Positions 1-56,708 of a stretch of 64,000 nt of DNA are shown one piece after another; position 1 is the first letter of the stretch; each line of letters begins with the position of its first letter. Source of the DNA: Marsupella aquatica (Eukaryota; Plantae; Marchantiophyta); contig OZ316894.1 of NCBI GenBank assembly GCA_973895155.1, positions 14,996,699-15,060,698 of the forward strand. The letters are read 5' to 3'. The notes under the pieces are model-generated. The model saw only the letters and a list, made by a program, of their open reading frames with translations, was not told the origin of the DNA and did no database searches. Both the position numbers and the translations under genes were made by a program.

Positions 1-789
1 ACCGGTCCGTGGTTGGAGCCGACTTTGGCGTCAAAGATTGTCCTCTGAAGCTGAAGGTGACAAAGCCCACCGACCCGGCTTCAAAGTCAGGGGAGACTTC
101 TGGAACTCCCTTGACAAAACAGAAATCTGCCCCCGTCTCTTTTAAGGAACCGGCAAAGAGGAAGCTTGTAGATCAACTCTCTGGGCAAGGTTTGAAAGCA
201 GTGGTCTCAGAAGATGCTGCTGGAAAGAAGAAACTGGATCAACGGGAGATCCAGAAGCGCGCACCATCTGCACCCGAAAGTGTTCTCATCTTTGGTCCCA
301 CCAAATTTAGAGAGACCGTCTCAGATTCTTGTAAATTCTTTCGGTGGGCCTTCTCTATCATCGAAGGGTGCAGTTCAAGAAAAGAAAAAAGATTCAACAG
401 ACATCACTACCGCTTTGCAGCATGAAGAGATGTGACACCGCCGGTATGGCGGTTAATGAGTGATTCGGTCTAACTGCGCTCGGCACGCGCGTTAGGAGTA
501 TCTTAGACCGCTATTATTAGCATAACGACAGTATTTAGGTGATCATTATGGGTAGGATATCATTAGGTAATAAGGGGGAATTCAGGTTCGGACTGGCGGC
601 TGGTCGCTATTCGCACACCCGGGTTACGAGCGTGGAGGGGCCCCTCCCCCGGGTCCGTATAACGAACTTAAGGAAGCGGCCACTGACACGCGCTGACTCA
701 GACCGGCGGAGTGGCCGGCACACCACAAGCGTGAGCGGTTCAGCCTATGGGTGTCGAGGAGACGTCGGGGGATCAACAAGCCCTCAAGG

Positions 790-797
790 TATAAAAG
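790..797 (+). promoter_or_regulatory. TATA box (TATAAAAG) of the 431-4433 element
   Basis: GGTATAAAAGGGG about 105 bp upstream of ATG 898; typical LTR TATA context. AATAAA at 3842 lies downstream of the ORF. Confidence 0.55.
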
Positions 798-897
798 GGG
801 AGCCAACCCTTTGTAGTGCACCAGTCCATCAGTCCACGCGCCAGCTTCGACCCCAGCTCTCTCGTTTGCTCTAAGTCGCCACTACTATCTCCTCTGA

Positions 898-3534
898 ATG
901 TCGCACACGATCCTCTCCAGCTTGGCCATTCGATTCTGGATGCAGTTCCTATCTACCGGAAGGCACTTGGCCGACTCATTGAAACACGCCAACCCGCGCT
1001 GATACGAAATCGAACGCGAGTACGAGAGAGCCATCCGCCTAGCAGGACGACACCACTACATCCTTAACTTTGACTACCCGTCTCAGAGCGAGCTTTACCA
1101 ACCTGCAGAGGTATCCGGGTACTTCTTCAACGAAGACAAATATATCGGGTTCTGGGAAGCATTGCTTCGGCTTCCGGATGAGGTCTTCAATATCCCAGGT
1201 ACAATCGACTTGCAGCAACATCACTTCGACCACATCCCTGCTCAGGTTTGGGCTATCATCAACAGCGAGTCCAGCACTATCCGTTCGACAAGGTCGTCTG
1301 CACTCGCTTCGGAGAACTTCTACCAGCACCTACAGAGTTTCATAGGAACTCGGCCAACAACCAACATGACCAACTCAGTCGTACCCGTACCCGTACCCAT
1401 ACAACCTCAAGCTCAGCTTCAGCTTCAGCCTCAGCCGCAGCCTAGCCAAACCCCACCACCGATCGCCCAGCCAGCACAAGTACGCTCCGTCATCAATGCT
1501 GTGGATATTAGCGATGACGACGAGGCTACCCTACCCTTGACCAGGCGGCCAAGAGGAGCAAGCGCTCAGGGGGCCGACACTATATCGTCCCCACCCCCTG
1601 CTCTGACCCCAGGAGCGGCCCCAACAGACAACATGGTGACCGTGGCCGACCCGGGCCCGTTACTAACGGCAGTGGCACTACCCAGGCCCGATCGGGAGTT
1701 TGGGGAGGTGTCACCTTCCCCGAGCCAGTCACGGGGGAAGAAGAGGAAGGAATCCGCCACTGCATCCGGGTTACCGTTGGCCACGGTAGCCGTGGCCAAG
1801 GTGACGATGCACCGCATGGGGGAAAACGTTCACAAAAACATCCTCCATCCCAAGCATGCGGTGTACTTGAAGACTCAGGGATTCGAGCACCTCGCCTCCC
1901 TCCCCTCGAACACTTGCAGGTACTACAGGGAGGACATGACGGAGTTCGTCAGGAATTATGACGACGCGCGTCAACATACTCGGCTGCGGGGAAGGAGTAT
2001 GTCCCTCATGGAAGAACGGCTCAGGATGATCTTCGGGTTACCCGAAGGTGACCATCGAGTTGAATCACGGGCTCCCGGGGGCAAGGGAGCCAAGTACCAA
2101 TCTTCAAGTTTTCCCTCAGAGGGAGCAGTGGACAACGGGTTCGTGATGAAGACCTGCCTCATCCCCGAGATAGTTGAGCGACTGGAGTTCCAGAGGTACG
2201 CCCTCCACATGATGGAACCCCGGGGGGAGATCTCCGCCGCCCAGGTTATCCAGGTCGAGAACTATCGACCTAGGAGGTGGGCGTCGTACTTCGCTAAGAA
2301 ATTCCATGAAGAGATGGAGCGGCGAAGGAAGACGCTGTACATTGGCGGGAAGGCATATTTCGCTAGCCACATCAAGATCATTCTTGAGTGGTACGCCCGG
2401 TTTGATCGACGAACCCTTCCCCGTGTCAACGTTACAAAGCTGGTCCCAGCTAGGTGGGTTTTCCCGGCCTTGGAGAGGCGGCCCCAACCCGAGGCCCGAA
2501 GTCCAGCGGACACGCCAGCTTCACCCACCCCACCTCCACAAGTAGTTGTAGTCGTAACCGAGGAGGTACCGGATGGGTCGGGTGTCGCAACCGTTGATGC
2601 GACCCAACAGGCCGGGCTAAGTACAGAAGTCGGTACGGCGGAGGTCTTACCCGAACCCGGTTCTCCCAAAGACCCACCGGTGGCTATCCCGGAGAACCGG
2701 ACATTGCTACAGGAGGACGCTCCAGCCCCTTCCAACGTTACGTCCCCAGGGCTGGACGTCACTGCCCCGGCCCCCGCGCGTGTTGACGTCTGCCCGTGCC
2801 CAACTCCGAACAGGCACAACTTGGACCACCCGGAACTTTTCGTACAGGGTATATTTCTGAACGGGCTTCTGGGAGATTTCTCTCATCAGATTGCCCGGGA
2901 TACCGGGGAGTTCATGGCCCGGAAGGTAGCCTGTTTCTTCAATCAGGAGTTGGTTGCCGTAGTAAAGGCAGGACGGGCCCAGTCAGAGGCCCTTCAGATG
3001 ATAGAGCGGTACCGGGTGGAGTCCGTGTACCTAAAGAACAAAGTTGCGGCTCAAGAGGCTGAGCTTCAGCAACTACGACCCAAGGTTGCAGCCGCCGATG
3101 AGTTGTTAGCAAAGGCGCACGCTCTTACCGCCCTAGCCGAACAGGCCAAAGCTGGGAACGAGGCCGAGATTACACGACTCCGGAACCAGATTGACAGTTT
3201 GAAGAATCAAACTGTCACCTGGCAGAAAGACCTGGAGGAGGCCGAGGAACGGGCCCAACGGGACACGGCGGAGATAGCCACGCTGCAGGCCGAGGTGGCG
3301 CGGCTCCAAACCGAGGCCGAGAAGCAGGACCAGCTGGCGGGTAAACTGACAAGTGACGCCCAGTAGTTGGAGGAGGCTTGTCAGGAGGCAGCAGAGGAGA
3401 CGGACGCGGCGAGGCGAGAGAACGAATCTCTGTTGGACCAGGTCCAGCTCCTCAAGGCGGACAATGACAGGCTTCGAAGGCAGCGGGATGGCCGCTCCCA
3501 TTCAGGCGGCTCTGGCAAGCGTGCCAGGCATTAG
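898..3534 (+). CDS. Element-encoded protein (reconstructed ~878 codons; track ORF 1162-3366): conserved globular domain, Pro-rich linkers, C-terminal coiled coil
   Basis: One frame from ATG 898 to TAG 3532-3534, broken only by TGA 1000-1002 and TAG 3364-3366; both are one C>T change from CGA/CAG. The heptad pattern continues past 3366 (LEEACQEAAEETDAARRENESLLDQVQLLKADNDRLRRQ). Confidence 0.75.
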
Positions 3535-5510
3535 CGGCGGAGTAGGAATAGATTAGGATTAGGACTAGCTTAGTCAGGTTCTTGGGACAGGCACCTGCCT
3601 TCGGTACAGCATTGCTGCCATGCTGTCCAGCCTGCGTAGATTAGGATCTTCTAATAAGACACAGCCGTTTCCGGCCTGACTGTCAGCTTAGTTAAGACCT
3701 TAGTCAATGAATCTTCGGTGAGAGGACACCCCGTCCCTCGTCCCTTAGTATTTAGTGCACCCCTCGGTAGAGGCAAGGGGGGGGGGTTTTAGTTGCAGAG
3801 TTGGGCGTCCGCGATAGATGCGGGGAGTCCCGACCTCTAGGAATAAAAGAGTACCAAGGGGAGGGGGTAGGACTAAGCTCGCCGGGCGAGTGCGAAGCCG
3901 GGCTCCGTTGTAGTGTGCACCCTCGGCCTTGAACCTGTTCATTCCGGGGCTGTCGGGTCAACTAAGTGTACGCGTATGTTCCCTTTGTAGTAAAATCCTT
4001 TCCCATCATTTTCCTTCGTGTAAATCAAGATTGTATGCATGTGTGCGTGTATGTGTGTGGGTTTCTCGTATATGGGTGGCAGCGCCAGGCCGAACGCACT
4101 ACCTGAGACATGCACAGGGTGCAGCCTACGGGTAAGTGGTTGCGAGCACGGGTTGAGGACCTGTATCATCGAATCCGGATCGAAGGCGGATAGCACGAAG
4201 GCTTAGAAGCCCTTAAGCTGGGGTCGATCCTGCTATCGACTAAGGTACGTTCCGGCGGCGGAACACAAACCATACCTAGGAGGTGTCCATATTTAGCAGT
4301 ATGCGCACTTAGCGCTAGTTTACGAGAGGAAGGTGCATTACGTGCTTCCCTTCCTGCCCGAACCCTCGAATTTACGAGGGATATGCCCGTCTAAGCTGAA
4401 GTCTGAGTTAAGGCCGCAGCCGATGACGTGACAAGAGACGCTTGTGTTTTGAGAAGAAGTGGCTCGGTTGATGGAGACGAAGAGAGTTCAGAAGACAACA
4501 GTTATTCTGAAAACAACTAACCTACTTCTTGTTGACAATATTGATGACAAGAACTCAACATTGGTTCGAACGGTTGATTGGTTGCATGTAGAGAACATCA
4601 AGACATTGATGAAAATGAATCCAAAAATTTTCACCACACCATTTGTCTTGTTTGTGATTCCCAAAGACTGCCCGACAGTCTCGGACTGGGACCCACAAAA
4701 GGCATTGAGCTGGAGATAGCGGGTGATTGGTGGTAATCATGGTGCTTGGGCTAAGAGAGAATTGTATGAGGCATATGGGAGAGAGATCTTCAATGAACTT
4801 CAAGCTTGGGTGTATGCTGGTCTCTCGAAGGAGGACATGCAAAAACTTAGCATCCAACATAATATTGATCAGGAGTCCAGGAAAAAGATGAACAACATTG
4901 ATCAAATTTGAACAATGCATAAGATTTTCCTTGCCAGAGGGATGGCAAAAACCAAGGAGACCAGAGAAGCGTGTGCCTTGGAGGTGTGTCTCAACGGGTT
5001 TTTTCCCGGGGATGCCATCAGCCTGAAGAAGTATGAACCTCTCTTCCAAATTGCCTTTAGATTGGGTAAGGTCTGGGAACTCCAAGACCAGATCTTTGAA
5101 TTGTGGAACCGGTTGGAGATCAAAGGGCAAAATAAGCAGAAGTCACCAATCAAGAAACTCAAGAAAGGAAAAGGAAAAGCGCAGCCCATACCAAAATCTT
5201 TGAACAAGCTCGCAAGGGACCTTACCCTGACACCTTGGAGAGCAATCCAGGGAATCAAACAAGATCAATTTTTGGAGTCCCTTCTTCTTCAAGTGAAGGA
5301 CCATATGATATCTCTCGAGCAGATGGCAAAAGAAGCCGAGAGTTACAAGAAACTTGTTAAAATTAGCAAGCTTTTTGTTTAGTTGTCAGGGCAACCAGAT
5401 TGGGCGACGTGCAAACAAATGTTTCCAAAGGAAACAGAATTGGCCGAGCTCAAAAGATGGAGTGGGAAGTTGTCTGATGTGGTATGTTCTCCCCCTCCAT
5501 TGATTTGTTG

Positions 5511-6200
5511 TTTGAATGCGGAGTGGGATACGGGGTATCCCCTGCCGGATTCACTTGGGGTGTTTGAACACTGAATTTTTCTTTGGGTATTTGAGGTTTG
5601 AATGCGAAGTGGGATACGGGGTATCCCATCTTGGATTCACTTTGGGTTTTTGAACACTGAAGGTTTCCGTAAGGTATTTGAGGTTTGAATGCAAAGTGGG
5701 ATACGGGCGGGGCAGGTGAGTGTTTTTTTTAGTGGCAAAAATTCGCTAGATTCCACCTCCCCAAAAATCCTTCGCCACTTTTGGCTAAAATTTGCTACTT
5801 TTTTGCTGTCTCATTAGCCAGTGTTCCACCTAATCCCAGGCCCCTTTAGCCAGAATCTAACGGTCCGCCTTAAATTTAGGGAGATCTGACGGTCAAGAAC
5901 ATAATTGAATACAGAATCTTTTAAGCATCTCCTTGACACACTTTACATTCGCCACCTTGGTGAAAAAGTGAAATCCTTAAAAAAAACACTGATACAGGGT
6001 ATCCCATCTTGGATTCACTTCTTGTTTTTGAACACTGTGGAGGTTTTCGTAGGGTATTTGAGGTTTGAATGCAAAGTGGGATACGGGGTATCCCATACCG
6101 AATTCACTTTTGGAGCTTTTCCATTGGGGTCGTTTCTATGTGGTTTTTGCTTGTTTGAATGCGAGTTTGGGTACTGCGTATCCCATGTCGCATTCATCCT
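5511..6200. repeat. ~86-bp tandem repeat with internal hairpin (GGGATAC-GGG-GTATCCC), about 5 units, inside the MTase intron
   Basis: TTTGAATGC...GTGGGATACGGGGTATCCC...ATTCAC units start near 5511, 5597, 5684, 6064 and 6153. Confidence 0.85.
5718..5991. mobile_element. MITE-like insertion (~274 bp) splitting one repeat unit
   Basis: Terminal inverted repeats (G)AGTGTTTTTTTT / AAAAAAAACACTG. Non-coding. No clean TSD seen. Confidence 0.6.
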
Positions 6201-8646: not shown

Positions 8647-10674
8647 CTAAGCACTTGCCTCAGTTGTGTACCATGTGAGTTTGATTCTCTCAGGAATGTC
8701 TTCGGTTCTTGTCAAAATCTTTGACACCTTTGCCATCCAAAATAACTTGCCTTCTAGATCCTTGTGTGCTGCTGCACATATCATTGTTAACTTCCAAATC
8801 TCTGAAATCCCCAAATTCAGCTTGCTTTCATCGAGGTCCGGTGTACATAATTCTTTGTGGTCCAACAACTTTGTCAACCAAAGTTGGATCAACACCTTCA
8901 GCAATTTCATTTCTCACCCTTGGAAGTGTTGGACTTTGATTTTGTTGCGGCCAAACCCACTCAAATAACCACTCACCCTCTTGTAGGTGGTTTTTGATAA
9001 TATCTTTTTGTTTCTAAAAAAACTCATCCACCAAAGTTTATCTTCATTGTCAAAGTAATTGAAATCTTCTTGAATAGCTTTTTGATATTTCACCAGAGTA
9101 GTTAATGCACCAGCTGTATTGGAAGATTCCTGGACATCATCCCTCTCAACACCTTTTGCTGACTTCAATGATATTTGTGCAACAACCCACATTCTTGAAG
9201 TTGGAATGTAATTGACAAACGTCACTGCATCTCCCCAATCCAGGGTCGTGGACAGATGTTTCCCATGAAATGTTGTCTCTTCATTTCCATCCTCCATGAC
9301 TCGTTTGAATTTGAATTGTCTTTGAAACATAATGAGATTGAGATCTCTCAAGACTCGGCCTGCGACTCCCTTCTCATTTGGCTGGTCGGTTCCATTGACA
9401 AATTTTTGAAAATCAGCTACTTCATCCACAAATATGAGAGAAGCTTCAGGGGAATATGCTCGTCGAATAATATCTTCAAGAGTCTCCAAGCAAAATGCTT
9501 TGTGCTTGTTTAACCTAGACAAAAATTTACTAAACATCTGATCTATTTGGTCATGTGTATGACCGACCAACAATAAACTTACTTTTATCTTGTCAAAAAT
9601 CTTCAAATTTACTAGCATGTGAAGATAAGCCATCAAGAATTAATTCTTGTTTTCCCTAGTGGTATTATCCAATTGAAGATATAACACTCTTGGTAATGTC
9701 CCATCCCATGTATTCAAGACATTTTGAATAACATGTATGGTCAAGTTTGCATCATTGTGGATATTGGGATATGTCAAAAATACTTTTGCTGCAAGGTTCC
9801 TGTTGAAGATGAGACAACCTACAACATGTATTGGAATGAAATATTTTTCATCCATGTTCTTTGGACAACGAAGAAAATGTGGTAGCTCTATTTTCTTTTG
9901 ATCCATACCATCTATACAAATACCCAAATACTTGTTGGGTTCATCATAGCATTTTTTACAATGCTTAGCTAACTTCATCCTTTCCAATGATTGTACTTTT
10001 CGATGCTCCATAAGGGCATTGATGTACTTTCCTGAAATGATACAATAACAATGAATTAAAAATCAATAAACCTTGACAAATATTTGAGTACATGTCATGA
10101 AATTAGAATTGAAGGTTATAGTTAGTGAACTTACTTTTATCCTCTTCAGTTTTGCTTCGTCTCGAAGAGCCTTGAATTCGGTACAAGGACCACAAGTAGA
10201 AAATTGACTCCTTTTAGGAATTCGTACATTTGGGAACTTTTTTTTCCAAACCTGCAAAAAATAAGAATATGTAACTTGTTGCTCTTCTCGCAACATTGTT
10301 TCAGTTTCAAAGATTCCATGTATCTCTTGTTTTGTCCAATTGTCTGGCAAGTGATGAATCTCTTTATGGGGAAGACTATCCATATTTTTTGAAAAAATCT
10401 TTCAACCATTCCACCAAGTTTAGAAATGAAGGTGAGTCTTCCTTGCAAAAGGTATCTCGTTCAATCCTTGTAAACATGTTTGCATGGATTGTTGCCAATC
10501 TATTATTACCTAAAGAATATAGTTTCTTGAATCCTCCTCTACATGTAGGTTGTCCATTTACAGTATATCCACGAGAAGTACTACAATTGTTCATGATACA
10601 CCTCGTAGCAAAATATTTTTCTGCAAGTGTTTAAGACCAAAATAATACTTGCGTTGTTTTGAGCATTCCTCTAG
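8647..10674 (-). pseudogene. DUF7869/Sola-like DDE transposase, degenerate, 5' end truncated at a CACTA terminus
   Basis: FSTCGPCTEF, GICIDGMDQ, VLYLQLDNTTRENKN and LLVGHTHDQIDQMFS across ORFs 10063-10383, 9640-10011 and 8914-9636. In-frame stop at 9640, a frameshift and introns. Confidence 0.75.
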
Positions 10675-11044: not shown

Positions 11045-11684
11045 TAAAAGAGTAAGATAAAGGGGAACATTGGGAAGAGACCGACAGGCCACATGGGGGA
11101 ACGGTAGCGAGAAAGGAGGGGTGGAGCTTGATGGTCACCAAATATTCAAACAGGGTCGCCTTGCTTGATTCGCAAACTTTCACTTAGGATGTAGATTAAA
11201 GCATTAGAATGCGAGCTTCAATCACTATGGAAAAGTAGGTTTTTGCTGGGTGGCCGAGGAGGTTTAACCCAGGTTAAGGGTAGACTCAACCTTGGGTTGT
11301 AACACTCCCCCTTGGTTGTACCGTGGAAACATGTTATGTGCAACCAACAAGTCTACCATATATGTGGAGTGTAATTTTTGTATCTTTAAGATATGGCCTA
11401 ATGAAAAGGAGAAGAAATTAGGGGGGGATGTAACCTCATTAAAACCTCCCCTACTTTCTTTTGGGAGGATAGAGTGTTACCATCCCTCCTATTCTATAGT
11501 ATAATGTAATTGGTTTGTGAGGTAAAGTTTAAGTAGACTAAGTGGTCTTTAGGCTCTTTTGAGGTGAAGTGTAAACATAAGTAGACTGTGTAAACATAAG
11601 TAGACTGTGTAAACTAAGGTAAGTGGTGTATGGGTCTGTAAAGCTATTCGGCCAAGTTAGGTTGTTGTAAAGCTAGTCGTAGTT

Positions 11685-14544
11685 GGTAATGGTAATGTAT
11701 TATAAGCACCGGGACCATGAAAGTCAAAGGAGCTGCCACAAAAAGTAAAGTACAATGCAATCAAAGAAAAGAGCAACCAAAAGAGATTGCCCAGAAGAGG
11801 ACAACTATGTCCTCAAAGAAACTATGGACCTAGAGAGCCCTATGGACCTAGAGAGCCCTGAAAGATTTTCCAACCTATTCTCCTTTCCCTATCCACCGCA
11901 AAGATATATCTTCCAAGTTGCTGAGGGGGCAGACCAAACAATGCATACAAATCTTTCACCAAGATTTGAGATGCCATCCTAACCCCCTCATAAAACTTGC
12001 AAGCAATGAATACATGATATTCATTCTCTATACTAGAGCTATCACATAGTTGACAAACCCTCTTTTTCCTGTCAATATCCTTCCATCTCCCTTGTTCTAC
12101 TTCAAGGTGGTGTGAGCTTAGTCTATACTGAGCAATAAGTTGTCTAAGTTGTACTGAGATAGTGCTAGATAAGTATTCTTGTTCTCGATATTTCTTCATG
12201 GGGTTCACATCTCTCATGTAGTATTGCTGCCGTGGGCTAGGTTCATGCCAAAGTTTGTGCAAAGCCTTTTGCTCAAGTTTTGCTCTTAGCTTGGTTGGGT
12301 GTGTTGGCCATTCATGTTCAGGAAAATCCCAAGCATGGGCCCACCTGCACACATCTTCATACCACCCTTTAGCTGAAGATGAGCACAAGGCATGAAAAGG
12401 AAATCTGGTTTCCTCCAACTCTCTTACACGCATGATGTATTTGAGTGTGTGGAAGAGTGCCTCCACCTCCAAAGGAAACAAGCCTGCCTCTGCAAGTGTA
12501 AGTGCATATGGGGTTTGTGACTTGATCCCAAGCTCCATCTCAAGAAATAGCTTTTGCAGCCCCTCAATCTGTTGCCACCCAGATTTAGACACACCTGCTC
12601 CCCAAATTGGCGCTCCATAAAGAATGACTGGTTTCACCAAAGCTCCAAAGAGATGTTTCCTTAACCTCCAAGTGTAGAGACCAGCTCTTTTGCATTTGTT
12701 CATGAATGCATAAAAAGCTCTGTACCCATTGGCAGCCCTAGATTTTACACATGAGGCCCAACTCAAGTTTTGAGAGAACTCCACCCCAAGGTATTTGTAG
12801 GTCCTCACAAATTCCACCAGATTCCCTTGGAAGTAGAGCTCTGGATTTTGTCGTGTGCCAATGCCCAAACACTTGGTCTTCTTGAGGTTGACTACCATCC
12901 CTGTTGCTTGACAAAACTCCTCCAAGGCATTGAGATGTCTTTGCAAAGCTTCTTGAGCATGAGCAAGTAGGACCACATCATCTGCAAATATAAGAAGTTG
13001 GAGGACAAACCTACCCAATTGAGTGCCAACTCCACCATGCTCCTCCAAAATGTTGTGTAGCTGATCAATGAAGATGCCAAAGAGAGTTGGTGAGAGAGGA
13101 CAACCTTGGATCACCCCAAGAGTGCTCCAGATTTCTTCAGAGGTTTCCTTTGAAAGTTTGATGCGCACTTCTTGGTACAATTTAGAAACAGCCAACCTGA
13201 GCTCTTCAGGCACTTCCAACTCCACCATCCTATCCCAAAGCTTGGATCGGGAAACTTTGTCAAAGGCCTTGGAGAAGTCCACAAACAAGAAAAATAATGG
13301 TTTATGTGGAGATTTGGCCTTTTCACACAACACCCTCAAGCAGAGAATGTGATCCATAGTGCTGAATTCTCTCCTAAAACCTGCTTGTGAAGGTGCCCTT
13401 TTCATCTCACTCTCCAACCAAGAGCTTAATCTGGCTTCAAGTAGTCCTCCCAAAACTTTAGCAAAAGTATTGCCTACCATGATGGTTCTGTAGTTGTGCA
13501 CACCTGCCTTGAAGATAGGCACCACTCTTCTGGTCATCCAAGCTTTAGGTAAACCTAAAGCCATTGCTTGATTCAGCTCATGCACCAAGTTTGTTAGTAA
13601 AGAGGGTCCTCCCCACAAAAGAAGCTCCAAGTTCAGGCCCAACAGATCTTTAGCTTTCCCATGTTGCATGTGGGAAAGATGCACCTTCACCTCCCTCTCT
13701 GTAAACTGAATGGTGTCCCCAAGGGGCAAAGGCATGCCACTAGCATCTGGAAAGAAATACAAGGATGTGACATAGGTTACCAGGTCCTGGTGATCCAAGG
13801 GGGGAGTAGTCTTGCCTGATTGCATTCTCTCCCAAAAACGTTTTGGATGTTTGATGAACTCCTCACATAGTGATTGTTGATGACTCTTCAAGAAGCACCT
13901 CTTCTTGTGTTTGATGAAGTTCTTGTACATAGTGAATGCCAAAAGTCTCTTTTCCCCTGAATGTGATCTTGCTTGCATCCTTGCTCTAGCACAATCCTCG
14001 TCAAACCAAGCCTTCATGTTTTGCTTTCTAGGGGGTTTGGTGGAGAAAGTAGAGGCTGCTGCTTGTGCTATGACTTCTGAGAGCTCAATCTGATCATCCA
14101 GGGTATGGAGAAGATGGTCAAAGTTGGCTTTGAAGATGACTTCTCTATCAGGGTCTAGAAACAGAGGTTTGGGTACTGGCTTTCTATGCACTTTGTTTGG
14201 GATTGTGGTCAGGTCAAGATGGAACAACGTACAAAGGCAAGTGTGAAGACTCTGGTTGTTGATCAAGTATTTGAAAGTCAACCACTCTAGTGGCAGAGGT
14301 AGGTGAGGCAAGAAGGTAGTCAATGGTACTACATCCTTGTTTAGATCTAAAAGTGTAACCAGATGATTGGGGAAATCTCTCAAGCCCATTCAATATTCTT
14401 AGATTACAAGAAGCTCCCAAATGCAAAAAGTGACGTGTCATGTCATTTGTTCTGGTGTCAAGAGCCTCTCTCACCCAAGGTATCTCTTCACTACATGATG
14501 ACCAAGGTAAAGTTCCTAAGTCCTCACTTTCAGTAAATTGTTCA
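11685..14544 (-). mobile_element. 5'-truncated non-LTR retrotransposon (RTE-X-like LINE), copy 1, inactive
   Basis: Near-identical to 57182-60056. RT motifs QGCPLSP and FADD, C-terminal CQLC..HVFIAC, 3' tail TAATA(CATTAC)2C. Relative to copy 2 it has a 4-bp insertion near 14230, a 12-bp deletion (GNKDDVH>GVH) and a 1-bp deletion near 11872. Confidence 0.95.
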
Positions 14545-17850: not shown

Positions 17851-20800
17851 TCACTGCAGACTAACACACTCTGATGGCCAGAGCACAAGAGATCCTACTG
17901 CATCTGCAATTATTTCCTGAGGTGGATCATCGTCTCTATTCGGAAATGGCAAATTACAATCAGATACAATCACTGTAGTCAACAACACTACTACATGGTC
18001 ATCCGGGACCACTTTGCCATGGAATTTTGCATGATCTGGTCGCAAAATGCCTGTACCCACACATACCTGCGAGTCATCCTCCCATGATAGAAGATTATGG
18101 ACTGGCTCTGCTGTGGCTATCACCTCCACCTTACCCTGGCTGTTTTTCTTGGCTTTCCTGGGTGGCTTATACATGACATTATTCATACCTTGGTTGCGAG
18201 TCATGACTTTGGCACGAGTGTTTTGTGCTGGTGATCGAGAATTGGCTACACTCTTCTTCAAAGAATCTGCATCCATATTTGACACTTCTGATTGTGTAGC
18301 AGGATTTCCCTGTGACATCATCTCAGTATCTGCCAACATTGTACTTGCTTCAATTGAAGCATCTACAATCTTACTTGCATCCAATGTTGCTCCCAAGTTT
18401 CGACGTCGCTTCACCCTACTCCCACTTGGTTGAGAGTCTGTCAACTCTGCATCAACTACAATTCAGTGTCATGTCCAACATAAGTCAATCACTCATCACA
18501 TGTGCTAAATGTACATGTCACCAACCACAAAGTTGTCACTATCTCCTTACCATTATGAACAGCCTTCTTCCCCTTCTTTGCCATTGCCATATGCTCCATG
18601 TCTGCTTCTGTTGATCAATAAACACACCACAATATTCAGGTTGAATCTATTAACCACTGAATTGTTGCTCAACATTCATATAGAGGAATTTAAAGCATCA
18701 GCTTACCTGATACCTCCTTGGCTATGGTCACTGAGGCACTGGGCACATCTTCTTCATTATTGCTCTTTGAATCACCTGATACATCAATCATGATGTCACT
18801 TCAGATCCCAGTTCATCCAACCAGTTCTTACAGAAAAGATTACCTCCAACCGGCTTAAGCTTCACAAAACTCCATGCACTTTTCAAATGTAATGTATTGG
18901 ATCATAGCAGGTTACCTGTCTCAGCAACCTTCTTGCCCTTCTGCTTACTGATTATAGGGTCCTTCTCTGCCTCCACTCTTCCTGCATTCAAACCATTCAC
19001 TCAATTCATGAAAACTTACTTCTAACATTTGAACATAGGACACAATGAACAATGGGCCGGTGTCATTTCCATACCTGTGTCAGATTTGCCAATTCCCTTT
19101 TTTGTTAACAAGGGCACACTTTGTACAATGTTGCCCTCATTGTTTGGTTGGGAACCACCCAATTTTTCAATCACAAGCTTGAAATTAGATTCCACTGATG
19201 CAAGAAGGTTCGCTACAGATGCCTCCACAATATCCAAACGATCAGCCAATTTACTTTTCACTCGAGGGAGTCCACACTCTAATGACTTCAACCGTTCACA
19301 CATCTTTGTGAGAGTTGTAACAGTTCCCTGTCATAACACAGCTTACATATCTCAGATAACTGTCCCCAAGAACTGGTTGCTTACTTGCTACTACATTTCT
19401 TTCTGATGCTCAAGGCCAAATAGTCACAGAACATACAGAATTACAACATAATCACCTGTTTGGAAGTTACACTTGTCACCTCACTCCTTTGTTTCATGAA
19501 CTCCTCTCTCACTTCTTGTGCTGATGGTTCTTCACCTGTCAATTTCTTCTGCAGTCCACATCAACATACATATGAATGAAACCAAGTGTTGATTGTCAAT
19601 GAAAATGTAATAATGGTAGCAAGATGATAAGTTTGAGGCTTACTATCAGGCATGTCACTGCCTTACCAATTGTTCTTTCACTGGAGCATAACTTCCTCTC
19701 CCAGCCTGTGAAAGGTGTTTCACTTTGCCTCGAGCATTTGACATCAGTTCACTCTTGCTCTGTCCAGCCTCCGACATGAACCCTTTGATTAACCGTGTCC
19801 ATTGATCCAGTTCCAATGATGGGGGTGGTGGCATTCTCCTGTTAGAACCATTGTCTATCCACATCCTTTTCAACCTATGCCTCTCTTGTTTCAAAATCCT
19901 CATTGCATAATCTGATATGCAATCTTCAACTGGGCCCTTACCATCATTACCAACATACTCCCACCGTTCAAGAATGTCCTTGCAGATAGCAGCCCAATCA
20001 GCTTTGTTCTGACTCCTAAACTCTGTAATGCTCAAATCTAACCAACGCAATACTTCTCCTCTTAGGTCAGAATGCCAACGGTTCTTACCATCACATGTGG
20101 GAGTTATCCAACCTTCGGAATTCACTTCTACTTTACCAAATTTGTTACTGTCTCCTGCCTTGGTACTCCCTGAAGCGCTACTAGGTGTCCCTCCACGGCC
20201 TGGTGTCCCCCCACGGCCTGATCTCCCCCCACGGCCTGGATTGCATTGTCCAAACCTCCCTGGAGTCCCTGCACATTTACAGGATCCATTTACAGTCACT
20301 TACATTAGGTAAGTATGAATCATAAATCCCGCTGCCAAATATACAGTGGACTTCAGAGCAATTCTGCAATGACCAAGTTACCTCTCCCTTGGCGCATAGA
20401 TGGTTCTGGACCACCTGTCCTATTGCTTTGTCTTGATGAATTAGGGGCGTTTCTCCTGCCTGTGAATGATTGCCTCCTATCTGAACGTGGATGGCCTTTG
20501 TTGTTTTCGTGATTGTCCCAATCAGAGTCTGCATACCAACAGGTACATGCCACACTCATGGACCTGTAAGATAAACTCTTTGCCCTAGCTACACATCAGA
20601 TAAGTGCATATTGAGCTAAATCTCTACTATCATCACAAAATCACTAGCACAAGGCACTTACTTGTCCAATCATCCTCCTCACCTTTCCATTGCCCTCTGT
20701 ACCCGTCTCTACCACGCTCTGGGTGTTCATATTCATCCCATCCATCTTCTGCTCCATCATAGTCATCATCATAATTATCAGGCGTCCCTTGCCAATAACT

Positions 20801-21004
20801 CTGGCTCCTTCTAGGGTATGGATTATGTGATTTCTCTCTAGCTGCCCACCTACCTGGGACTTGATGAGGGCCCTGTGCATCTTGCATAGGTGCATTTTTC
20901 TGTGAGCCCCCTGCATCTGGGTCTCCATCCATATCCAATCTTTCCTCTTCACCCCACTCTCCAAGCCCCATGTCTGTCTCCATGTCATCACCCTCTTCCC
21001 CCAT
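17851..21004 (-). CDS. CACTA TnpA/ORF2-like multi-exon gene
   Basis: Exon-like ORFs 20633-21004, 20353-20559, 19655-20299 (QWTRLIKGFMSEAGQSKSELMSNARGKVKHLSQAGRGSY, Transposase_24-like), 19022-19303 and 17851-18444 (KFHGKVVPDDHVVV..LPFP..AVGSLVLWP, typical En/Spm C-terminus). Exact exon limits uncertain. Confidence 0.75.
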
Positions 21005-21181
21005 AGCTTCTGCACAGCACCCACAACCAAACAGGGAGAATCAGCACACTAAATTCAAAGTATCAATCAATTTCATGCATATCCAACTATCCTAAACATC
21101 ATTCCAGGTAGCAATTCCCGTTATGTGACTCTGTGCAGGTAGTCATCCTCAACCTCATACTTGCCAATCGCCAGCTGTTGC

Positions 21182-27100: not shown

Positions 27101-30100
27101 ATGTCATTGGCAAAATCTGCTGCTGCTGCAAAATGCTCTCCATCTCCAGATGTCGAAAAGCTACTCAAAAATGTTTCTTCTCCCACCTGTGAATTGAAGC
27201 CAAATTAGGGATAGGATTTCGGGGTGGCAAATCCACTGTATGCCGAAGTCGAGGAGGTACTCTGATAATGCGAGGGTCTTCGTCTTCTTCTCCATCACTT
27301 GGTGCTCCTATCCAACGGAAAATTACATCTGGCATAGCGGAAGGAATCACTGACTCCTTAACTGGTCGAATTGGCAATGTAACAGGAGACGAAGGAGCAG
27401 AAGGTTCGGGCTCCAGTGGTTCAAATTCTTCTCTTGCAACAGTAGCTGGTTGATCTGCAATGGGATGCATTGGTACTAAAACAGGAAGTTCTTCTTTAGA
27501 ATTATCGCTAGGTAAAGAGACTTCCTGGTTAGTTCGATCTGTCAAAAGTACAGGAAGGGGTAGCTCGTCTGTTCCGATAGGTGCTTCTCCCTGTTCAAAA
27601 TCCTGGGAAGATGCTTCAGGAAAGATCTGTCGACTGATAGCATGGCGCAACCGTTTCCAAGATTTTCGAGTATACGTCACTGAAAACTCCTCCCGAATGT
27701 TTTTATCCTCGTTTGTAGCCAATGAAACTGGTGCTGAGCTGGTTGTCGAAGCGGGTGTCTCGGGTACCAATATGGGTACAGATATACCCATATTACCAGA
27801 TACCTGATTGCGACTCGGAAAACCAGCAGAGCCTCCTTCAATCAACTCATCTTCAGGAGAAACCCATTTTACAGGCGGAAATGAAGGAGCTCCTATCGCG
27901 GCTATTGCCTCATCTAATTCCTTAGTTATATCCAAAGGAATCGATATGAGTGAACCAGGTGTAGACCAGGCAGGGTATCTTGCGACAGATTGGGGAGAAG
28001 TCACTGGTTCACCTACTTCGTCTATATCCACAATTGCATCCTCCGAATCAACTTTAACCAGCTTCACAATTTCTGAGCTTAATATTTCTGACTCCTGGAC
28101 CAGAGGGATTTCACCTATATTTGGGCTAGAACTAAGAGAGTCGGACGAATCATACTCCTGTAAAGCCTGCAAAGCATCACTATTTGCCTCTATGGGAACC
28201 AAAACAGGGGTAGAAGTAAATCCATCATACTCGTCCTCAGCAGTAGAATGTTGAAGAGGTTCCCCTGAAAAACCTTCTTCATCCACCCTCACCTCATCTT
28301 CAACATTCATCCGAGAAGCAGAATTATCCTGATCAACATCATAAATAGGCTCGGCAGCACAAGGTGAACACGAGAGTCGAGGTGACATAGAATGCTCCAA
28401 CCCTGTTGGCATTGCTGAAGGAACATCTTCGGCAACTTGAGCCTCTCTTGGTTGGTGAAGAATCGGATCGTCACTCCCTTCAGCTGATGCTCTTGTCTCT
28501 TTCAATTTCCGAACTTCACCCACCAGTTCAGGTTCCTCACAGTCGAGTATTGCACATAGCTCTACCACTGTGGAATTGGCTCGGACTTCTCGTACTTCAG
28601 GCATATAATTTGCTTCACCGGTAGATGCTCTCTGATTGTTGCGATAAAAATCTTTTTCCAAGACAAGCAGACAGTCATACTTATGGTAAATGTGAGCTAA
28701 ATAAGGGGCCAAGTAGGTACACCTTATTTTCCCCGTTTTCAGCCTGCTACGAAAATTTTTGACCTGAGTATGAATTACTCGGTGCAAAACCTTCGTCCAA
28801 TTGATAGACTGCGTCTGTTCTAATGAACAGATCACCGTTGCAGCGAACGAAAGAGTGATGCGCGTCTGGCTTTCTGGGTAGAAAATTGGTGCCAGAAATC
28901 GAAATAGACGCTGCAGAGAATTATCTAAGCAGTCCGCCGCTAGCCATCCATTCCGCCTCTTGAAAGATCCTAGAGCGAAGAAGGATTCTACATAAACCCG
29001 AGGCTCACAATCAACCCTCTGTAAATCCTCGCCCTCCATCGGCGTCGAATAGACCTTCGCTATGAGCGCTTCAGTCCAAACACTGGGACGCGAGCGCACA
29101 CCAATCCTTTCTTCAGCGTCCCAGACACCTTGATCGATAAGGCTGAATTCGCAAATCTTCCAAGGAAGTTGAAGCAGCTTCTTCAAGCCCATTTTTGCCA
29201 GAGCCGTCTTCAACTGCCGCCTATGCACTGCATTCGATGGAATGTCTGCGAGTATTGGTCGCGTCGTCAGCTCAGTCTCCGCCATCGCGTGACTTGTTAG
29301 CTCCGTAAGCTCAGTGAGAATCGTGTTCCATAGTGAACTAGGGCGAAGCGCGACTGCTTACTCCTCAGCGTCCCGTTGAGCTGTCGCAATCCGCCATTGT
29401 ACAAGATGCCTAGTCATCGGCTCACAGCGTCTCATGCAACTGAACTAATACAAAAGCGGACCTCTGCACAACGTCCTTTGTAAACTAAGTGGACGCTTCC
29501 CCAGCGTCGAGTTACAATGGACGCTTTTCACAGCGTCCAATGTAAAAACTGAAAGTAACTAAAAAAATTAAAAAAATATGCCGAATACTTACTAGGGAGG
29601 GTCACTAATTCTAACTAAGTATAACTACCGCCCTCCACTTAAATTGCAACCTGTCCCAGGTGGAATTCTAAATGGAAGACTCATAGTACCGTTTAATCCT
29701 AAACCCATTGATTCTAGTGTTAAGTGGGTGACCATCTAAGGTAGTCAATGAAACTGAACCATTATCCCAGATGTGTGTAACTCGGTAAGGACCAATCCAA
29801 TGAGTATGAAGTTTCCCAGGAAATAGCATATAACGAGAATCAAAGACTAATGCTAAATCACCAACATCTAACTGCACTACGCGCAGCTTCTTATCATAAG
29901 CAAGTTTACGCTGGTTCTGAATGGTGACTGTATGGTCTAATGCTAAAAGTCTAACTTCTTCTAATTTAACAATATTGGAAAACCGATGTGAGAGACTATC
30001 TGAAGGAGAGAGTCGGTGTGGTACCAAGATACGTTCCGTTGGTAACGAAAATTCTATTGGAATAATACTATTCAGGCCATAGGTCAGATAGAAGGGGGTG

Positions 30101-39329: not shown

Positions 39330-39469
39330 GTAGATTCACAGTCACACCCCACGCAGCAGGAAACAACAATCACTTCAACTGCGACCAACCATGACAAGAT
39401 GAGTTAGTTCAAGGATCACATTTATTACAAAATTGTGTTTTATACAAAAATATGAGGGACTCCTACTCC

Positions 39470-45645: not shown

Positions 45646-48600
45646 TGTGGTGCGTCCCATGGCTCCCTAAACCCAAGAAACCCCCCAGCTCAAGCCGATT
45701 CCCGCAGGTTTCGTGCTTGGCGAGGCCGTTTCCGCGGCTTAGCGGCATGGGACGCTGCTAACCTTCTACTACTACTATTAACATTTTACACACATATACT
45801 GGACAGATCCTTCATCGGGTCATGAGATACGTAGCCGGCCTAATATAGGCCTTCCCCTGTCTTCCCCTGTCTTCCCCTCCGTCTTGTTAGGTATGTTTGG
45901 ATTCCGCCGCCGGAATGATCCCCAATAGGCTTGGTTAAGCCGCTAAGACCTCTCTTAGCTCGACACATCCAACTCTCACTCCCCTGCTTACTTTCCTTCC
46001 TTCTGTTGATGTGGGCACTCTTCACACAAGTTAATGCGACACACAAATAGCAAAATGACTCATTCTGACTGAGTCATACCATGCACTTGCCATACAAACA
46101 GTACATCTCATACACAAGTTCTGCGAACTAAGCCGTGAGGCCAACTCTATTCAGCTCTTAGGCATGAGGAAACATGAATATACACAAGGGTCACTGTATG
46201 ACTAACCGAGAGCTTCTCGTACTACTTGATCCCAGCCCGGCTGGTGCAAACTAAAAACTTGCTAAAGAAGAGGCCCTGAGCTCCCCGCTGCCCAGGTACT
46301 TATCCTGGTAGTGGATCCGCCATTCTTTGCATCGTAAGCCTAATCTACTTAACAGTAATCTACTTGCCCGAATCTACCTATGTACAGCAAGGCAGGAGCA
46401 CAAGTGTTGCTCCTACCAGTGGGACCGCAATCCCACTAAGCTAAGTGTCAGGGCCGCTCCTGGTTCTGATCCTAATCCTAAACGTGGAGATCCGCGCCCG
46501 CCCTGCCCACTCACGCCTCCTCCCTCCACGTCCGCCCTCCCTAAAAGGAACGGCGCCCTTGCACCGTCACGACACCGGTGGTGGATCCTTAATGGACGCC
46601 CCCAACGCTTCCTCCTCAGCCACTGCCGTAGGCTCATTCCCTGACAGATTACCTGCCCTTGACTGAGTCAACTCTCCATCGGCCTGACTGGGTCCACCAT
46701 CGGCGTCGGCATCGGCTCGAGAATCGGTTACAGCCTCAGCCTCGGCTACGGTCTCCCCGGCCTGCTCAAGAGGCGGATCTGGAATACTGGCCTCCTTACT
46801 GAGTAGTTCGGCTTGGGCCGCACCATCCCTACCTGTGATCATAGCGGGATCTATTGCCGTATTCATGTCGGAGGATGGTGCTGGTTCTACCTCTTTGGTC
46901 ACCACGGCTTGTGGAGTCGGATTACTCCTTGACCCTGAAGGTTTCCGCTTTTTCTTCTTTTCTGGTTCGGCAGCTGGTCCCTTCCCCTTCCCACTTACCT
47001 CCGGCACTGGTGCAGTTGGCGCGGCTTTTTCTTCGGCCAGTACCACTCCTGGTAACTTGGTTGCCCCAATTGGAGTTGGGCCTGATGAAGACAAGCACCT
47101 AAATACTGCGGCTTGTTTCTTCAGCCGCTCCGTTTGGTTGTCGGCCCGCCGCTGGAGGTTCTCCATCTTCCTCGTGATTTCCTCCAACTCCTCCTGGGTC
47201 TCATCCAGGTCCTTGCGTGCCTCCTCTAGTTCCTTCTGGGCTTCCTCCCGTTCTTGTTTCAAGGTAGTCCTCTCCTCCTGGGTTGCTTTTAGCTCCTTGT
47301 CGAGCTCTGCAATGATGACAGACTCCATCTGGTTCATCTTGGCGTAAGTCTGTTCGAGCATCTCGTCCTTCTCCCTTAGGTCGGCCTTGAAGCTGGCCGT
47401 CAGGGACGCAAGCTCCTGCTGCAGCGCCATAATCCCTTGATAGGATTTCCCTAACTCGGCCTCCTTCTGCTCAAGGGCTCCGCGGATTTTCTTGAGCTCC
47501 CCTTTCAACGCCCATTCCTTTCTTTGGGTCTCCGCCATGGCCCGGCTGTTGGCTGTTATGTGGGCCTCCTCTGTATTCTTCAGCTCTTGCTTCCACTTCT
47601 CCCTCTCTTTGATCGTGTCGGCCAACTCTTCCTGCGTCTGAGTCAGTTTATCCTTGATATTCTGATTATCAGCCTGCGCGGTGTCCAACTGCCCCTGCAT
47701 GATGTTCAGCTCATGTCGTTTAATCCGCAGTTCATCTTGGGCTTTCTTGGCCGTCCTTAGATCTTCAATCTCGGCTTCCATCCTCCTAAGCCGCCGAATG
47801 ACCTCGTCCGTCTTGCTTCTCTCTAAAGCCACCGCTTCTTCTAATTGGTGCTTCTCCAACTGCTCCCTATGGAAAAAGGGTCCTACCTCCAACTCCTCTC
47901 CAAAGATGCCGAGCGCAAGTTCCCCACACATCTCACCATACTCCATGGCTCTATTCTTAGCGTAGGTGGAGTAAGTAGAAGTGATCGGCATCGCCCATCG
48001 CGGCCTCTGCTCCCAAGCCGTCCTGCGGATCTCTTCAATCGTGGCTAGAGGTTTGCTTCCTTTTTTGGCTAGCCGCCTGATGTCCTCCGGCCAATCTCCT
48101 CCTGGTAAATCCTTTTCCTTAGCCAGGGCGGCCTCCTCCTCCTGCTTGATTCGCTCCTGAAATTCCTGCACCGTCTGTTTTATGCCGTCGAAGCTCGGGG
48201 GAGCAACATCTGGTGGGGGAGACTCAGGGCTACTCTGCTGGTTGGGGTCCCCTCGCACTACCCTTGGAAGTGTGGGGACAAACCGGCCACAGGTCCTTAC
48301 TCTTGGAACGTGATGGTCCGACCCATAGCCGGAATTATCATGGCTGCAGTCCTCCACTGCCTCCTCTACCTCTTGGACGTCCGGCTTCTCCCTCTCCTCT
48401 TCGTCGGTAGGAGCTTCAGGCAATTCTGCCTCAGATTCGGAGCTTGAGGTTCCCACGTACATTCGAACACCTGGCTTGGATTCCGGCCTGATTCTCTCCT
48501 TGTCTCCAGCAAAGGGGTTTTCTCTTGTGAGCCGGTGTAGGCCTACCTCTATAGTAGTGTCCTGCATTGTTGCCATTGTTGTTGTTGTTGCCGATGCCGA

Positions 48601-50314
48601 TTTCTTTTCTTTCTCCAGTAGTTTCAGCAGACTCTGCATGCCTGGTTGCTGTATCGGCAAGTCTTCCTTCCTGGGCCTAAACACCTGCTCGATCGTAGGA
48701 CTAACAGGTGGTTGAGGCTTCTCAGCCAACGGCCTCGGCGTTGGAGCTTCCTCGGGTGCCCTTACCTGCAGGGGAAGTACCGGGGCAAAAGTCTGACCTC
48801 TGGCATACCGGCACAACAGCGGCATGTGATAGCCCAGCCGCGACACGCTCCCCATGCCGATTACCTACTGCTCCTCCTTTAAGATCTTCTTCAATTGGTT
48901 GAGGAGGTACCCGTTGTAGTCCCGGCTTGGGTCTGGCCTTTCTGCCAGATAGACCTGTGCCTTGTCGATCTCTGCCCTCGGCAAGTTACAATGCATGGTC
49001 ACCCGCAAGAAGTCGATCATCTCTCCTATGTGCGGGTTGGTGCAGGTGTTCCGGAAGAAGCCATTCCTCGTTGATGGCCCGGGGAACGACCGGAACTCCT
49101 TGTCAGGCAAGGTCTTCCTGGTATCAACTTTGGTCTTATTGCCTATCGGCAGGCCAAACACTTCGGCAATTACCTTGGGAGTAAGATAGAAATCCTTCCC
49201 ATATATCCTCGTGCAATTGGTCTCGGGTTCCCATGACCCCACGAATTCTAATAGGTCTGACTCCGGTACCTCCGGCTTCAGCCATGGTAATCTTACAAAG
49301 GCCTCCAAGCCGGATCCGGCCATGAAGCCTTGGTATCTCTTGGTCTGCATGGCCGTAAAGCATGCATCCTCCTCCCGTGCAAAATGTAGTTGCACCTCCA
49401 CCGGTAGGGTTGCCGCCCAGCCTTTCCAGGTGTCATCCCTGGTTGGAATGGCCTTGATGGGATCGACCTCCTCCTCTTCGGCTTCTCCCTGCCTCCTGCT
49501 CTGCTGCTCGGCTGGCTTCTTTGGTGCCGCCGACCTCGTTCTTTTTGCCGGGGTGGCTTCATCGTTGACGGCTCCCTTCCTCTTCATCTCTGCTGCCGTG
49601 GAGGTTTCTCCTAGCACCGTTGCCTGGGTCCACCTTTCCGTGCTACCCTTTAATTCCCAGTGTATGTCGTTGCAGTTCTTGATGGCCTCTCGGATGCCGA
49701 CGACGCTGTCTTTGCAAAACAGAAGATCGTCGAGTTGATTGGAAGTAGGCGTCCACAGGAACTCGTCCTTGATGAGTTCGCCTCCTAAGAAAGCCGTCTT
49801 CTGCAGCTCCCACAATTGAGCGAGCTCCTGCCATTCTCGAGCTGCCCTTTCTGACTCCTCGTCCTCGTAAGTCTTGATGTACTCAGTTGCCTGTTCGAAC
49901 AGGCATCCCCAGAAATGTGCCGCTTGATTGACGTTGCTCATACCCTCCTTAGGTCGATCATCGGTATCTACTCTCTCCCCGAGTGCTTGCCTAAGCAGCT
50001 GACAGTAGTTGGCCTCCCGTAGTCGTCTGCCTAGTTCGTGCTCGCAAATGAGCCACCATCTCCTGCAAGCGCTCCTTACCCCTCTCCTCTGCCGGTCCTT
50101 CTTCCCGTTGATCCTTCCTAGCCGCCGACGCTTAACGCGCCCTAACCCTAATCGGGTTTTCACCCTCAGCCTTACCTCCGGCCTCGGCCCGGGTTCCATG
50201 GTTGCCCCTAATTGTTTATATTTTCCTTGTTTTGTCCCTATACTAAGGTGTTCCTAGGGTGCCTTCCTGCTTTACCCACTTAACCGGCCGAGTGATTCCT
50301 GTCTAGGCATCACA
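45646..50314 (-). mobile_element. 4669-bp TG...CA element (giant solo-LTR-like) containing a long ORF
   Basis: TGTGGTGC...GCATCACA (7/8 inverted match). TSD ATAAA at 45641-45645 and 50315-50319. No gag/pol. Confidence 0.88.
46567..50199 (-). CDS. Element-encoded ~1210-codon protein (track ORFs 444 aa + 762 aa in one frame): shared globular domain + long coiled coil
   Basis: A single TAG (48865-48867) separates the in-frame ORFs and falls inside the conserved domain. Homologous to 898-3534 (EF..TR..FGLP..NGF..TC..P.I.E..F..PR.EI..AQV). Confidence 0.8.
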
Positions 50315-56696: not shown

Positions 56697-56708
56697 TGGA
56701 TTGGGACC

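What the first reader, a model, noticed from the sequence alone, without database searches (positions are those of the whole stretch)
431..4433. Giant solo-LTR-like unit that is a self-contained gene cassette
Seen: TGT...ACA ends and a perfect 5-bp TSD (AGAGA), the integrase footprint of LTR elements, yet no gag, pol, PBS or LTR pair. Inside, in order, are TATAAAAG (790), ATG 898, an ~878-codon ORF and AATAAA (3842). Known: LTRs are normally non-coding, and extra gypsy ORFs (Ogre ORF1, Athila env-like, Retand antisense) lie between the LTRs. Inference: this family carries its accessory gene inside a 4-kb LTR, between promoter and polyA signal. The gene would then be duplicated in each full element and survive LTR-LTR recombination, so solo LTRs could keep supplying the protein in trans.
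Basis: partly seen in the sequence, partly recalled or inferred. Interest (0 to 1): 0.85.

Follow-up and report, generated by a model that had tools for sequence, protein, structure and literature searches.

The report
VANC-like gene inside giant solo LTR
A 4-kb repeated element, likely the lone terminal repeat left by a retrotransposon of a probable liverwort, carries a whole protein gene (broken in this copy) whose core is predicted to fold like the transposon anti-silencing protein VANC21, so such leftovers might help their family escape host silencing.

Summary
The unit is real. It spans 431-4433 with TGT…ACA ends and an AGAGA target duplication, is highly repeated in 4 of 4 laid runs, and related host copies lack it. 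It has no internal terminal repeat, PBS or gag-pol.

Correction: the 878-codon frame has two in-frame stops, at codons 35 and 823, so this copy is a pseudogene. The gene family is real: 38 homologues, named ones all from the liverwort Calypogeia fissa, one intact and colinear over 906 aa.

New result: the central domain has no Pfam hit, yet its confident model matches only VANC21 (Z 8.2, next 2.4). A second candidate unit with a homologous gene, and an internal copy of the domain in a complete gypsy element, lie in the same window.

Best reading: a solo LTR of a gypsy family whose long LTR absorbed its accessory gene (0.62). The defining test, two copies flanking PBS/gag-pol/PPT, could not be run. 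Twenty right-end junction contigs showed no PBS, and the orientation is open. Anti-silencing function is inferred from the fold only. MMTV sag is the precedent.

The parts
426..430 (+). Left target-site duplication AGAGA
   Evidence: contigs of other host copies skip the unit (tables 5 and 5c)
431..4433 (.). 4003-bp repeated unit with TGT…ACA ends, probable solo LTR; orientation relative to gag-pol unknown
   Evidence: CpG obs/exp 1.04 at both ends against 0.53 and 0.51 in the flanks
790..797 (+). TATAAAAG followed by a pyrimidine-rich stretch; likely promoter of the ORF
   Evidence: sequence; function not tested
898..3534 (+). Accessory gene, 878 codons, pseudogenised by stops at 1000-1002 and 3364-3366
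   Evidence: 3 stops in this frame, terminal one included, against 25-37 in the other five; colinear with intact P0039, 906 aa
898..1260 (+). Conserved N-terminal helical domain with no clear fold match
   Evidence: alignment through the codon-35 stop; model of homologue P0015, pLDDT 84.6; best Z 5.4, not above background
1804..2403 (+). Central domain with a predicted VANC21-like fold
   Evidence: pLDDT 91.6; 9LNK Z 8.2, rmsd 4.0, 195 aligned, next Z 2.4; Foldseek 9LNJ E 7.6e-3, prob 0.99, TMq 0.53; Z 8.0
2980..3531 (+). Coiled-coil-like region and basic C-terminal tail shared with P0039
   Evidence: only sub-threshold coiled-coil Pfam rows; alignment; basic motifs
3842..3847 (+). AATAAA, candidate polyA signal of the ORF
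   Evidence: not tested with RNA
4250..4278 (+). 29-nt motif with a small hairpin, shared with the second unit at 45915-45888
   Evidence: 36.5 bits, 0 of 100 shuffles reach it; the wider region folds no better than shuffles
4434..4438 (+). Right target-site duplication AGAGA
45646..50314 (-). Second candidate unit (4669 bp, TGT…ACA, 5-bp duplication) holding a homologous gene at about 49941-46567 with a stop at 48865; its ends are candidates only
   Evidence: profile E 7.7e-29
27165..29357 (-). Related domain in the ordinary position: internal sense ORF behind pol in a complete gypsy element (24756-38302, identical 1.39-kb LTRs)
   Evidence: profile built without this ORF hits 29222-28728 at E 1.4e-5

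Best explanation
The unit is an inserted, highly repeated 4-kb sequence that likely is the solo LTR of a gypsy retrotransposon family whose long LTR has absorbed its accessory gene, and that gene's core is predicted to share the VANC21 fold and would bind the element's own DNA to counter silencing. Shown: insertion with a 5-bp duplication, high copy number, no terminal repeat inside, a conserved three-part protein (N-terminal domain, central domain, coiled coil), and two stops in this copy. Inferred steps: (1) integrase inserted a full element; (2) LTR-LTR recombination left one LTR; (3) the gene entered the LTR when the PPT or PBS boundary moved past an internal accessory ORF of the kind seen at 27165-29357; (4) intact copies transcribe it from the TATA at 790 to the AATAAA at 3842; (5) the protein acts in the nucleus as a family-specific DNA-binding regulator, most likely anti-silencing (about 0.4 for that function). 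Orientation is about even between a sense gene in R/U5 and a Retand-like antisense gene in U3.
For: Ends and TSD. Empty sites and a depth step. The same right boundary in other copies with different flanks. Depth at the non-coding ends is 0.53-1.34 times the ORF median in 4 runs, with no twofold excess. No similarity between the two ends. A second unit of the same build with 26% identity in the core and a shared DNA motif near the far end. The domain also sits in a complete gypsy element, tying the gene to gypsy elements. 38 homologues, with both domains and the basic tail conserved. Unique structural match to VANC21 in two programs. LTRs up to about 5 kb and PMD/TRP28/Athila extra ORFs are known in non-chromovirus gypsy elements (PMC6317226, passages). 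VANC resembles PMD in structure (PMC13547354; bioRxiv 2024.09.27.615353; passages).
Against: No paired copy, gag-pol, PBS or PPT was seen beside any copy. None of 9 right-end loose-end rows (20 contigs) shows TGG within 5 letters of the end; rows with several contigs are majority lines and can hide a minority. One flank shared by at least 3 of 4 contigs in X2 (agreement 0.92; unrelated flanks stay at or below 0.76 in 999 of 1000 simulations) is neither a PBS nor a clear PPT. Contig depth is not copy number, and non-coding ends may drop out at 85% likeness. Z 8.2 is middling, identity is 10%, and Foldseek E is above 0.001. No dense repeated motif like VANC targets occurs in the non-coding parts. 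This copy is broken twice. The related ORF in the one complete element in view is internal.
Confidence: 0.62

Rival explanations
1. It is the solo LTR of a non-autonomous, LARD-like element (category recalled): two 4-kb gene-bearing LTRs around a short non-coding core, mobilised in trans and never next to gag-pol.
For: No gag-pol seen beside the unit. The recurring X2 flank is not a standard PBS or PPT. Defective Retand families that keep TRP28 but lose pol domains do amplify (PMC11963269, Results and Discussion).
Against: No paired copy was seen for this model either. It shares the gene-in-LTR core with the best reading.
Confidence: 0.13
2. It is a deletion derivative of an ordinary short-LTR element: the front of one LTR fused to an internal accessory ORF and the back of the other LTR.
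For: Accessory ORFs normally lie between the LTRs (PMC7264820), as at 27165-29357. Two purine tracts follow the ORF, at 3775 and 3856.
Against: Neither tract is followed by TG, and nothing after them resembles 431-900. The ends are not over-represented. Contigs tile the whole unit at high depth in 4 runs. A second unit has the same build. A one-off deletion without paired LTRs could not amplify by reverse transcription.
Confidence: 0.13
3. It is not an LTR but a self-contained non-autonomous element moved as DNA by a DDE enzyme that recognises TGT…ACA ends, carrying only its VANC-like helper gene.
For: It looks like a complete promoter-gene-terminator cassette. VANC genes belong to DNA transposons. 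No PBS was seen.
Against: No terminal inverted repeat beyond a few bases. The domain's nearest context in this window is a gypsy element. TG…CA ends with a 5-bp duplication are the retroelement integrase pattern (established knowledge; TSD 4 or 5 bp in PMC6317226).
Confidence: 0.12

Closest known systems
MMTV sag (retroviral LTR gene)
   Same: A protein gene inside the LTR that survives in solo LTRs: 490 of 527 sag contigs lacked other retroviral genes (PMC4667437, passages).
   Different: Animal betaretrovirus with an immune superantigen. Here a probable plant gypsy element with a predicted nuclear DNA-binding protein of 878 codons.
Retand/Grande antisense ORFs (TRP28 + Smc-like coiled coil), Ogre PMD ORF, Athila ORF-1
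   Same: Gypsy accessory ORF with a globular domain plus coiled coil; the Grande gene has its own promoter and a nuclear product (PMC7264820; PMC11963269; PMC6317226).
   Different: Those are described between the LTRs (Retand LTRs 315-1194 bp) and in flowering plants. The domain here matches no Pfam model.
VANC21 of VANDAL21 Mutator-like transposons
   Same: Predicted fold over 195-207 residues; a coiled-coil region (VANC21's is noted in PMC13547354); encoded by a mobile element.
   Different: VANC sits in a DNA transposon, is described as dicot-specific, and binds dense tandem motifs (PMC5735166, passages). Identity is 10% and no motif array was found here.
PMD proteins MAIN/MAIL1 and gypsy PMD-A
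   Same: PMD is structurally like VANC, and PMD-A is gypsy-encoded (PMC5418596, passages).
   Different: That survey covered angiosperms. No PF10536 hit here, and no direct structural comparison with a PMD model could be run.

Membership tests
Solo LTR of a gypsy retrotransposon | TG…CA ends with a 4-6 bp target-site duplication | tested here: met
Solo LTR of a gypsy retrotransposon | Repeated as a unit with shared boundaries | tested here: met
   depth step at both ends; loose ends at 4433-4436 in 4 of 4 runs; left-end flanks of other copies were not listed
Solo LTR of a gypsy retrotransposon | No internal domain or paired repeat inside the unit | tested here: met
Solo LTR of a gypsy retrotransposon | Same sequence found as a direct pair around gag-pol elsewhere | not testable with these tools
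   no genome held; contigs of the repeat are too short
Solo LTR of a gypsy retrotransposon | PBS or PPT adjoining some copies | tested here: inconclusive
   no TGG in 9 rows (20 contigs); one recurring flank; one C-rich row that reads as a purine tract on the minus strand but may come from tie-breaking (about 1% by simulation, noticed after the fact)
VANC (DUF1985) anti-silencing proteins | Fold of the conserved domain | tested here: met
   Z 8.2 and 8.0, the only match above 2.4 among 48,161 chains; predicted model, middling Z
VANC (DUF1985) anti-silencing proteins | Sequence match to the family model | tested here: not met
   no Pfam hit in the domain for the unit, 4 aligned domains or 25 homologues; no PDB sequence hit to VANC21
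VANC (DUF1985) anti-silencing proteins | Encoded by a VANDAL Mutator-like DNA transposon | tested here: not met
   no transposase in the unit; TGT…ACA ends with a 5-bp duplication
VANC (DUF1985) anti-silencing proteins | Dense cognate target motifs in non-coding DNA | tested here: inconclusive
   top 7-9-mers no more frequent than in resampled sequence (71, 77 and 199 of 200 reach them); targets could lie in the unseen internal region
VANC (DUF1985) anti-silencing proteins | Sequence-specific binding and demethylation | not testable with these tools
   needs experiments
PMD / TRP28 / Athila ORF-1 accessory ORFs | Pfam PF10536, PF04195 or PF03078 match | tested here: not met
PMD / TRP28 / Athila ORF-1 accessory ORFs | Location between the LTRs of a gypsy element | tested here: inconclusive
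   true for the relative at 27165-29357; apparently not for this unit
TIR DNA transposon with TGT…ACA ends (Ginger-like, recalled) | Terminal inverted repeats of tens of bases | tested here: not met

The most novel reading that the evidence does not exclude
A liverwort gypsy lineage has moved a VANC-like anti-silencing gene into its LTR. Every solo LTR is then a promoter-gene-terminator cassette, intact solos keep derepressing the family in trans, and LTR-LTR recombination no longer disarms the element. The VANC/PMD fold would be an ancient retrotransposon accessory domain that predates angiosperm MAIN and VANC.
Probability: 0.25. Interest if true: 0.85.

Novelty: new variant of a known kind. 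Interest (0 to 1): 0.66.

Why it matters
Plant LTRs are treated as non-coding and solo LTRs as inert remains. A gene-bearing LTR would make solo-LTR formation a way to multiply a trans-acting regulator, and annotation tools would miss it because no Pfam model sees the domain. The fold link also bears on an open question. Ikeda et al. call the ancestry of gypsy PMD-A relative to genic PMD 'fully open' (PMC5418596), and a 2026 atlas derives VANC from captured MAIN-like genes (PMC13547354). A VANC-fold family on liverwort mobile elements makes a retrotransposon origin testable and gives the poorly understood gypsy accessory ORFs a concrete function to assay.

Tried and rejected
No genome is held, so no genome-wide copy search or dN/dS was possible.

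Collection scans: metagenome contigs gave one locus, L001, a 34%-GC contig matching only the coiled coil at E 1e-4, rejected as spurious. Viral contigs gave none and prokaryote genomes none. A scan with alignment A2 could not start.

Protein searches: word-index searches found 0 of 500, 1 of 166 and 0 of 3538 candidates, the last only among proteins of 1587-4530 aa. The ESM Atlas did not complete.

RNA: no RNA holder was listed among the runs, which says nothing on expression. Rfam gave nothing above gathering. The hairpin region folds no better than shuffles (z -0.77 to 0.49).

Folds: the N-terminal domain has no clear match, and the viral fold library gave none for the central domain.

PBS/PPT candidates: a PBS-like 7-mer at 881 on the minus strand was rejected because it does not follow CA and is absent from the variant row. 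The purine tracts at 3775 and 3856 were rejected as LTR-defining PPTs.

Other checks: the first profile hit to 29234-28659 was circular and was redone without that sequence. The ORF at 62481-63998 is not a detectable member. Codon positions of the 14 listed ORF differences (6 third, 5 second, 3 first; 14 of about 600 rows) reflect this copy's decay and are no selection test. Two Calypogeia copies with near accession numbers appear inverted, so they are no LTR pair.

Literature: searches listed no plant element with a protein gene inside the LTR and no VANC-fold liverwort protein. Most subscription papers are not held. Steinbauerova 2011 and the VANC21 structure paper were seen only as references, Sasaki 2022 is not held, and no supplements were read.
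Full report
Observation. The unit runs from TGT at 431 to ACA at 4433 between two AGAGA copies, with TATAAAAG at 790, ATG at 898 and AATAAA at 3842. Such TSD pairs are common by chance (139 in this window), so I tested the boundaries with public contigs. Seven of 8 listed runs hold part of the unit. In the 4 runs laid first, summed depth steps up inside 431-4433; in X1 the ORF median is 223,324 against 1,167-4,969 in the flanks. The tool warns that this is no copy number. A contig crossing the left junction without differences has depth 75 in X1 and 108 in X2. Other copies of the host sequence skip the unit (joints 382>4433 in X2 and X3). At the right end, contigs of other copies follow the unit to 4433-4436 and then diverge into different flanks in 4 of 4 runs. 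The unit is therefore a real, highly repeated insertion.

Correction. The 878-codon frame has stops at codons 35 and 823. It is still a gene: that frame has 3 stops, the terminal one included, against 25-37 in the other five. A full HMMER search found 38 relatives. I looked up 20 of the 38; 9 carry a species name, and all 9 are the liverwort Calypogeia fissa. The host is thus probably a liverwort (inference). P0039 is an intact 906-aa homologue, 32% identical over residues 13-516 and 27% over 661-877, with the same basic tail. The N-terminal alignment runs through the first stop, supporting ATG 898.

Protein. It has an N-terminal helical domain with no clear fold match, a low-complexity linker, a central domain, a second linker and a coiled coil. 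Pfam sees nothing in the central domain. Its AlphaFold model is confident (pLDDT 91.6, 38 sequences). Among 48,161 solved chains only VANC21 scores above Z 2.4 (Z 8.2, rmsd 4.0, 195 aligned). Foldseek ranks the same protein first (E 7.6e-3, probability 0.99, TMq 0.53; Z 8.0 on realignment). Z 8 is middling and identity is 10%, but the match covers the whole domain and stands alone. VANC21 binds short motifs in its own transposon and removes silencing (PMC5735166, passages). VANC resembles the PMD of MAIN/MAIL1 in structure (PMC13547354; bioRxiv 2024.09.27.615353; passages), and PMD-A is gypsy-encoded (PMC5418596, passages). I found no array of repeated motifs in the unit's non-coding parts, so anti-silencing is an inference from fold and context only.

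Context. A profile built without other window ORFs hits two more places. The first is a gene at about 49941-46567 (E 7.7e-29), homologous also at its N-terminus. It lies inside a candidate unit 45646-50314 with TGT…ACA ends and a 5-bp duplication. That pair has the best terminal match among 81 chance-level pairs (7 of 8 bases); by hand about one such pair is expected by chance in the window, so its weight comes from bracketing the gene and from a 29-nt motif shared with unit 1 near the far end (0 of 100 shuffles). The second is the internal ORF behind pol of a complete gypsy element with identical 1.39-kb LTRs, a PBS and a PPT (E 1.4e-5). The gene family is therefore a gypsy accessory family that also occurs in the usual internal position.

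Is the unit an LTR? In favour: integrase-type ends, no repeat between the two ends, and no excess of the ends over the ORF (ratios 0.53-1.34 in 4 runs), where short LTRs with an internal ORF predict two or more. LTRs up to about 5 kb are known in non-chromovirus gypsy elements (PMC6317226, passages). Against, or missing: no genome is held and no pair or gag-pol was seen. Of the 20 of 21 loose-end rows shown, 9 lie behind the right end and cover 20 contigs; none shows TGG within 5 letters. One X2 row of 4 contigs has agreement 0.92, above the 0.76 that unrelated flanks reach in 999 of 1000 simulations, so a recurring neighbour exists. It begins TAGCC, as does the minus-strand PPT junction of the complete element in the window, but is not a clear purine tract and could be a nested insertion that was later copied. 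One X3 row is C-rich and would read as a PPT on the minus strand, but two-contig rows appear to break ties alphabetically, which gives such a run about 1% of the time. These are weak hints for an antisense gene in U3, as in Retand/Grande, whose antisense ORFs have their own promoter (PMC7264820, parts 1-2 of 3; PMC11963269, parts 2-3 of 5). The strong TATA at 790 fits either orientation. The left end was not examined for flanks.

Mechanism. Most likely a full gypsy element inserted, its LTRs recombined, and one 4-kb LTR remained and decayed. The accessory gene would have entered the LTR when the PPT or PBS boundary moved past it. Intact copies would express a nuclear, coiled-coil, VANC-fold protein acting on the family in trans. 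Insertion, repetition, gene conservation and the breaks are shown. LTR identity, orientation, expression and function are inferred.

Comparison and novelty. MMTV sag is the precedent for a gene in an LTR that survives in solo LTRs (PMC4667437, passages). Earlier unchecked notes of this scan report genes inside LTRs in other genomes. Plant accessory ORFs are described between the LTRs. Nine searches listed no plant case inside an LTR and no VANC-fold protein in liverworts; the library lacks most subscription papers and I read no supplements. Passages of PMC9289625, PMC13468544, PMC12885004, PMC12859917 and PMC12844716 added background only. It works like a VANC/PMD-type accessory gene but is not a VANC or PMD family member by sequence or host element. 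Verdict: new variant of a known kind, interest 0.66, with the defining LTR-pair test still to run.

Noticed in passing
window 24756-38302 (-): Complete young gypsy element: identical 1.39-kb LTRs, TTGGC duplication, PBS after a 6-base spacer (Athila-type, label recalled), gag 35697-32641, pol 32640-29668, accessory ORF 29357-27165, and two further short frames, one with a weak aspartyl-protease Pfam row (26711-26223).
   Followed up: partly
window 61437-64000 (+): A third element starting TGTGAC, inserted in a copia-like pol. It has 47- and 64-bp tandem repeats (61799-62072) and a coiled-coil ORF from 62481 running off the window, with no detectable homology to the unit's core.
   Followed up: partly
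window 1-430 and 4439-about 10700: The interrupted host is itself a repeated, decayed element, probably a DNA transposon: coding frames on both sides, an 86-bp tandem repeat at 5503-5707, and a DUF7869 frame at 8914-9639.
   Followed up: no
window 11684-14544 and 56697-60051: Two copies of one LINE-like reverse-transcriptase element, 98.9% identical over 2874 bp and in opposite orientation.
   Followed up: no
window 17851-24774 and 38760-41624 (-): CACTA-type transposon frames (Transposase_21, DUF4216, weak Transposase_24) left of the gypsy insertion; BRCT-repeat, PHD-finger and weak F-box frames right of it, possibly cargo of the same transposon.
   Followed up: no
window 255-466, and the loose end at 4435: Identical insertion junctions occur in runs labelled organism A and organism B, so the two labels are very close relatives or one species.
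   Followed up: no
window 807-822, 3753-3767, 3911-3927, 3981-3990: A TAGTG…CACC motif occurs three times and CCCTTTGTAG twice, on both sides of the ORF; found by eye and not tested against chance.
   Followed up: partly
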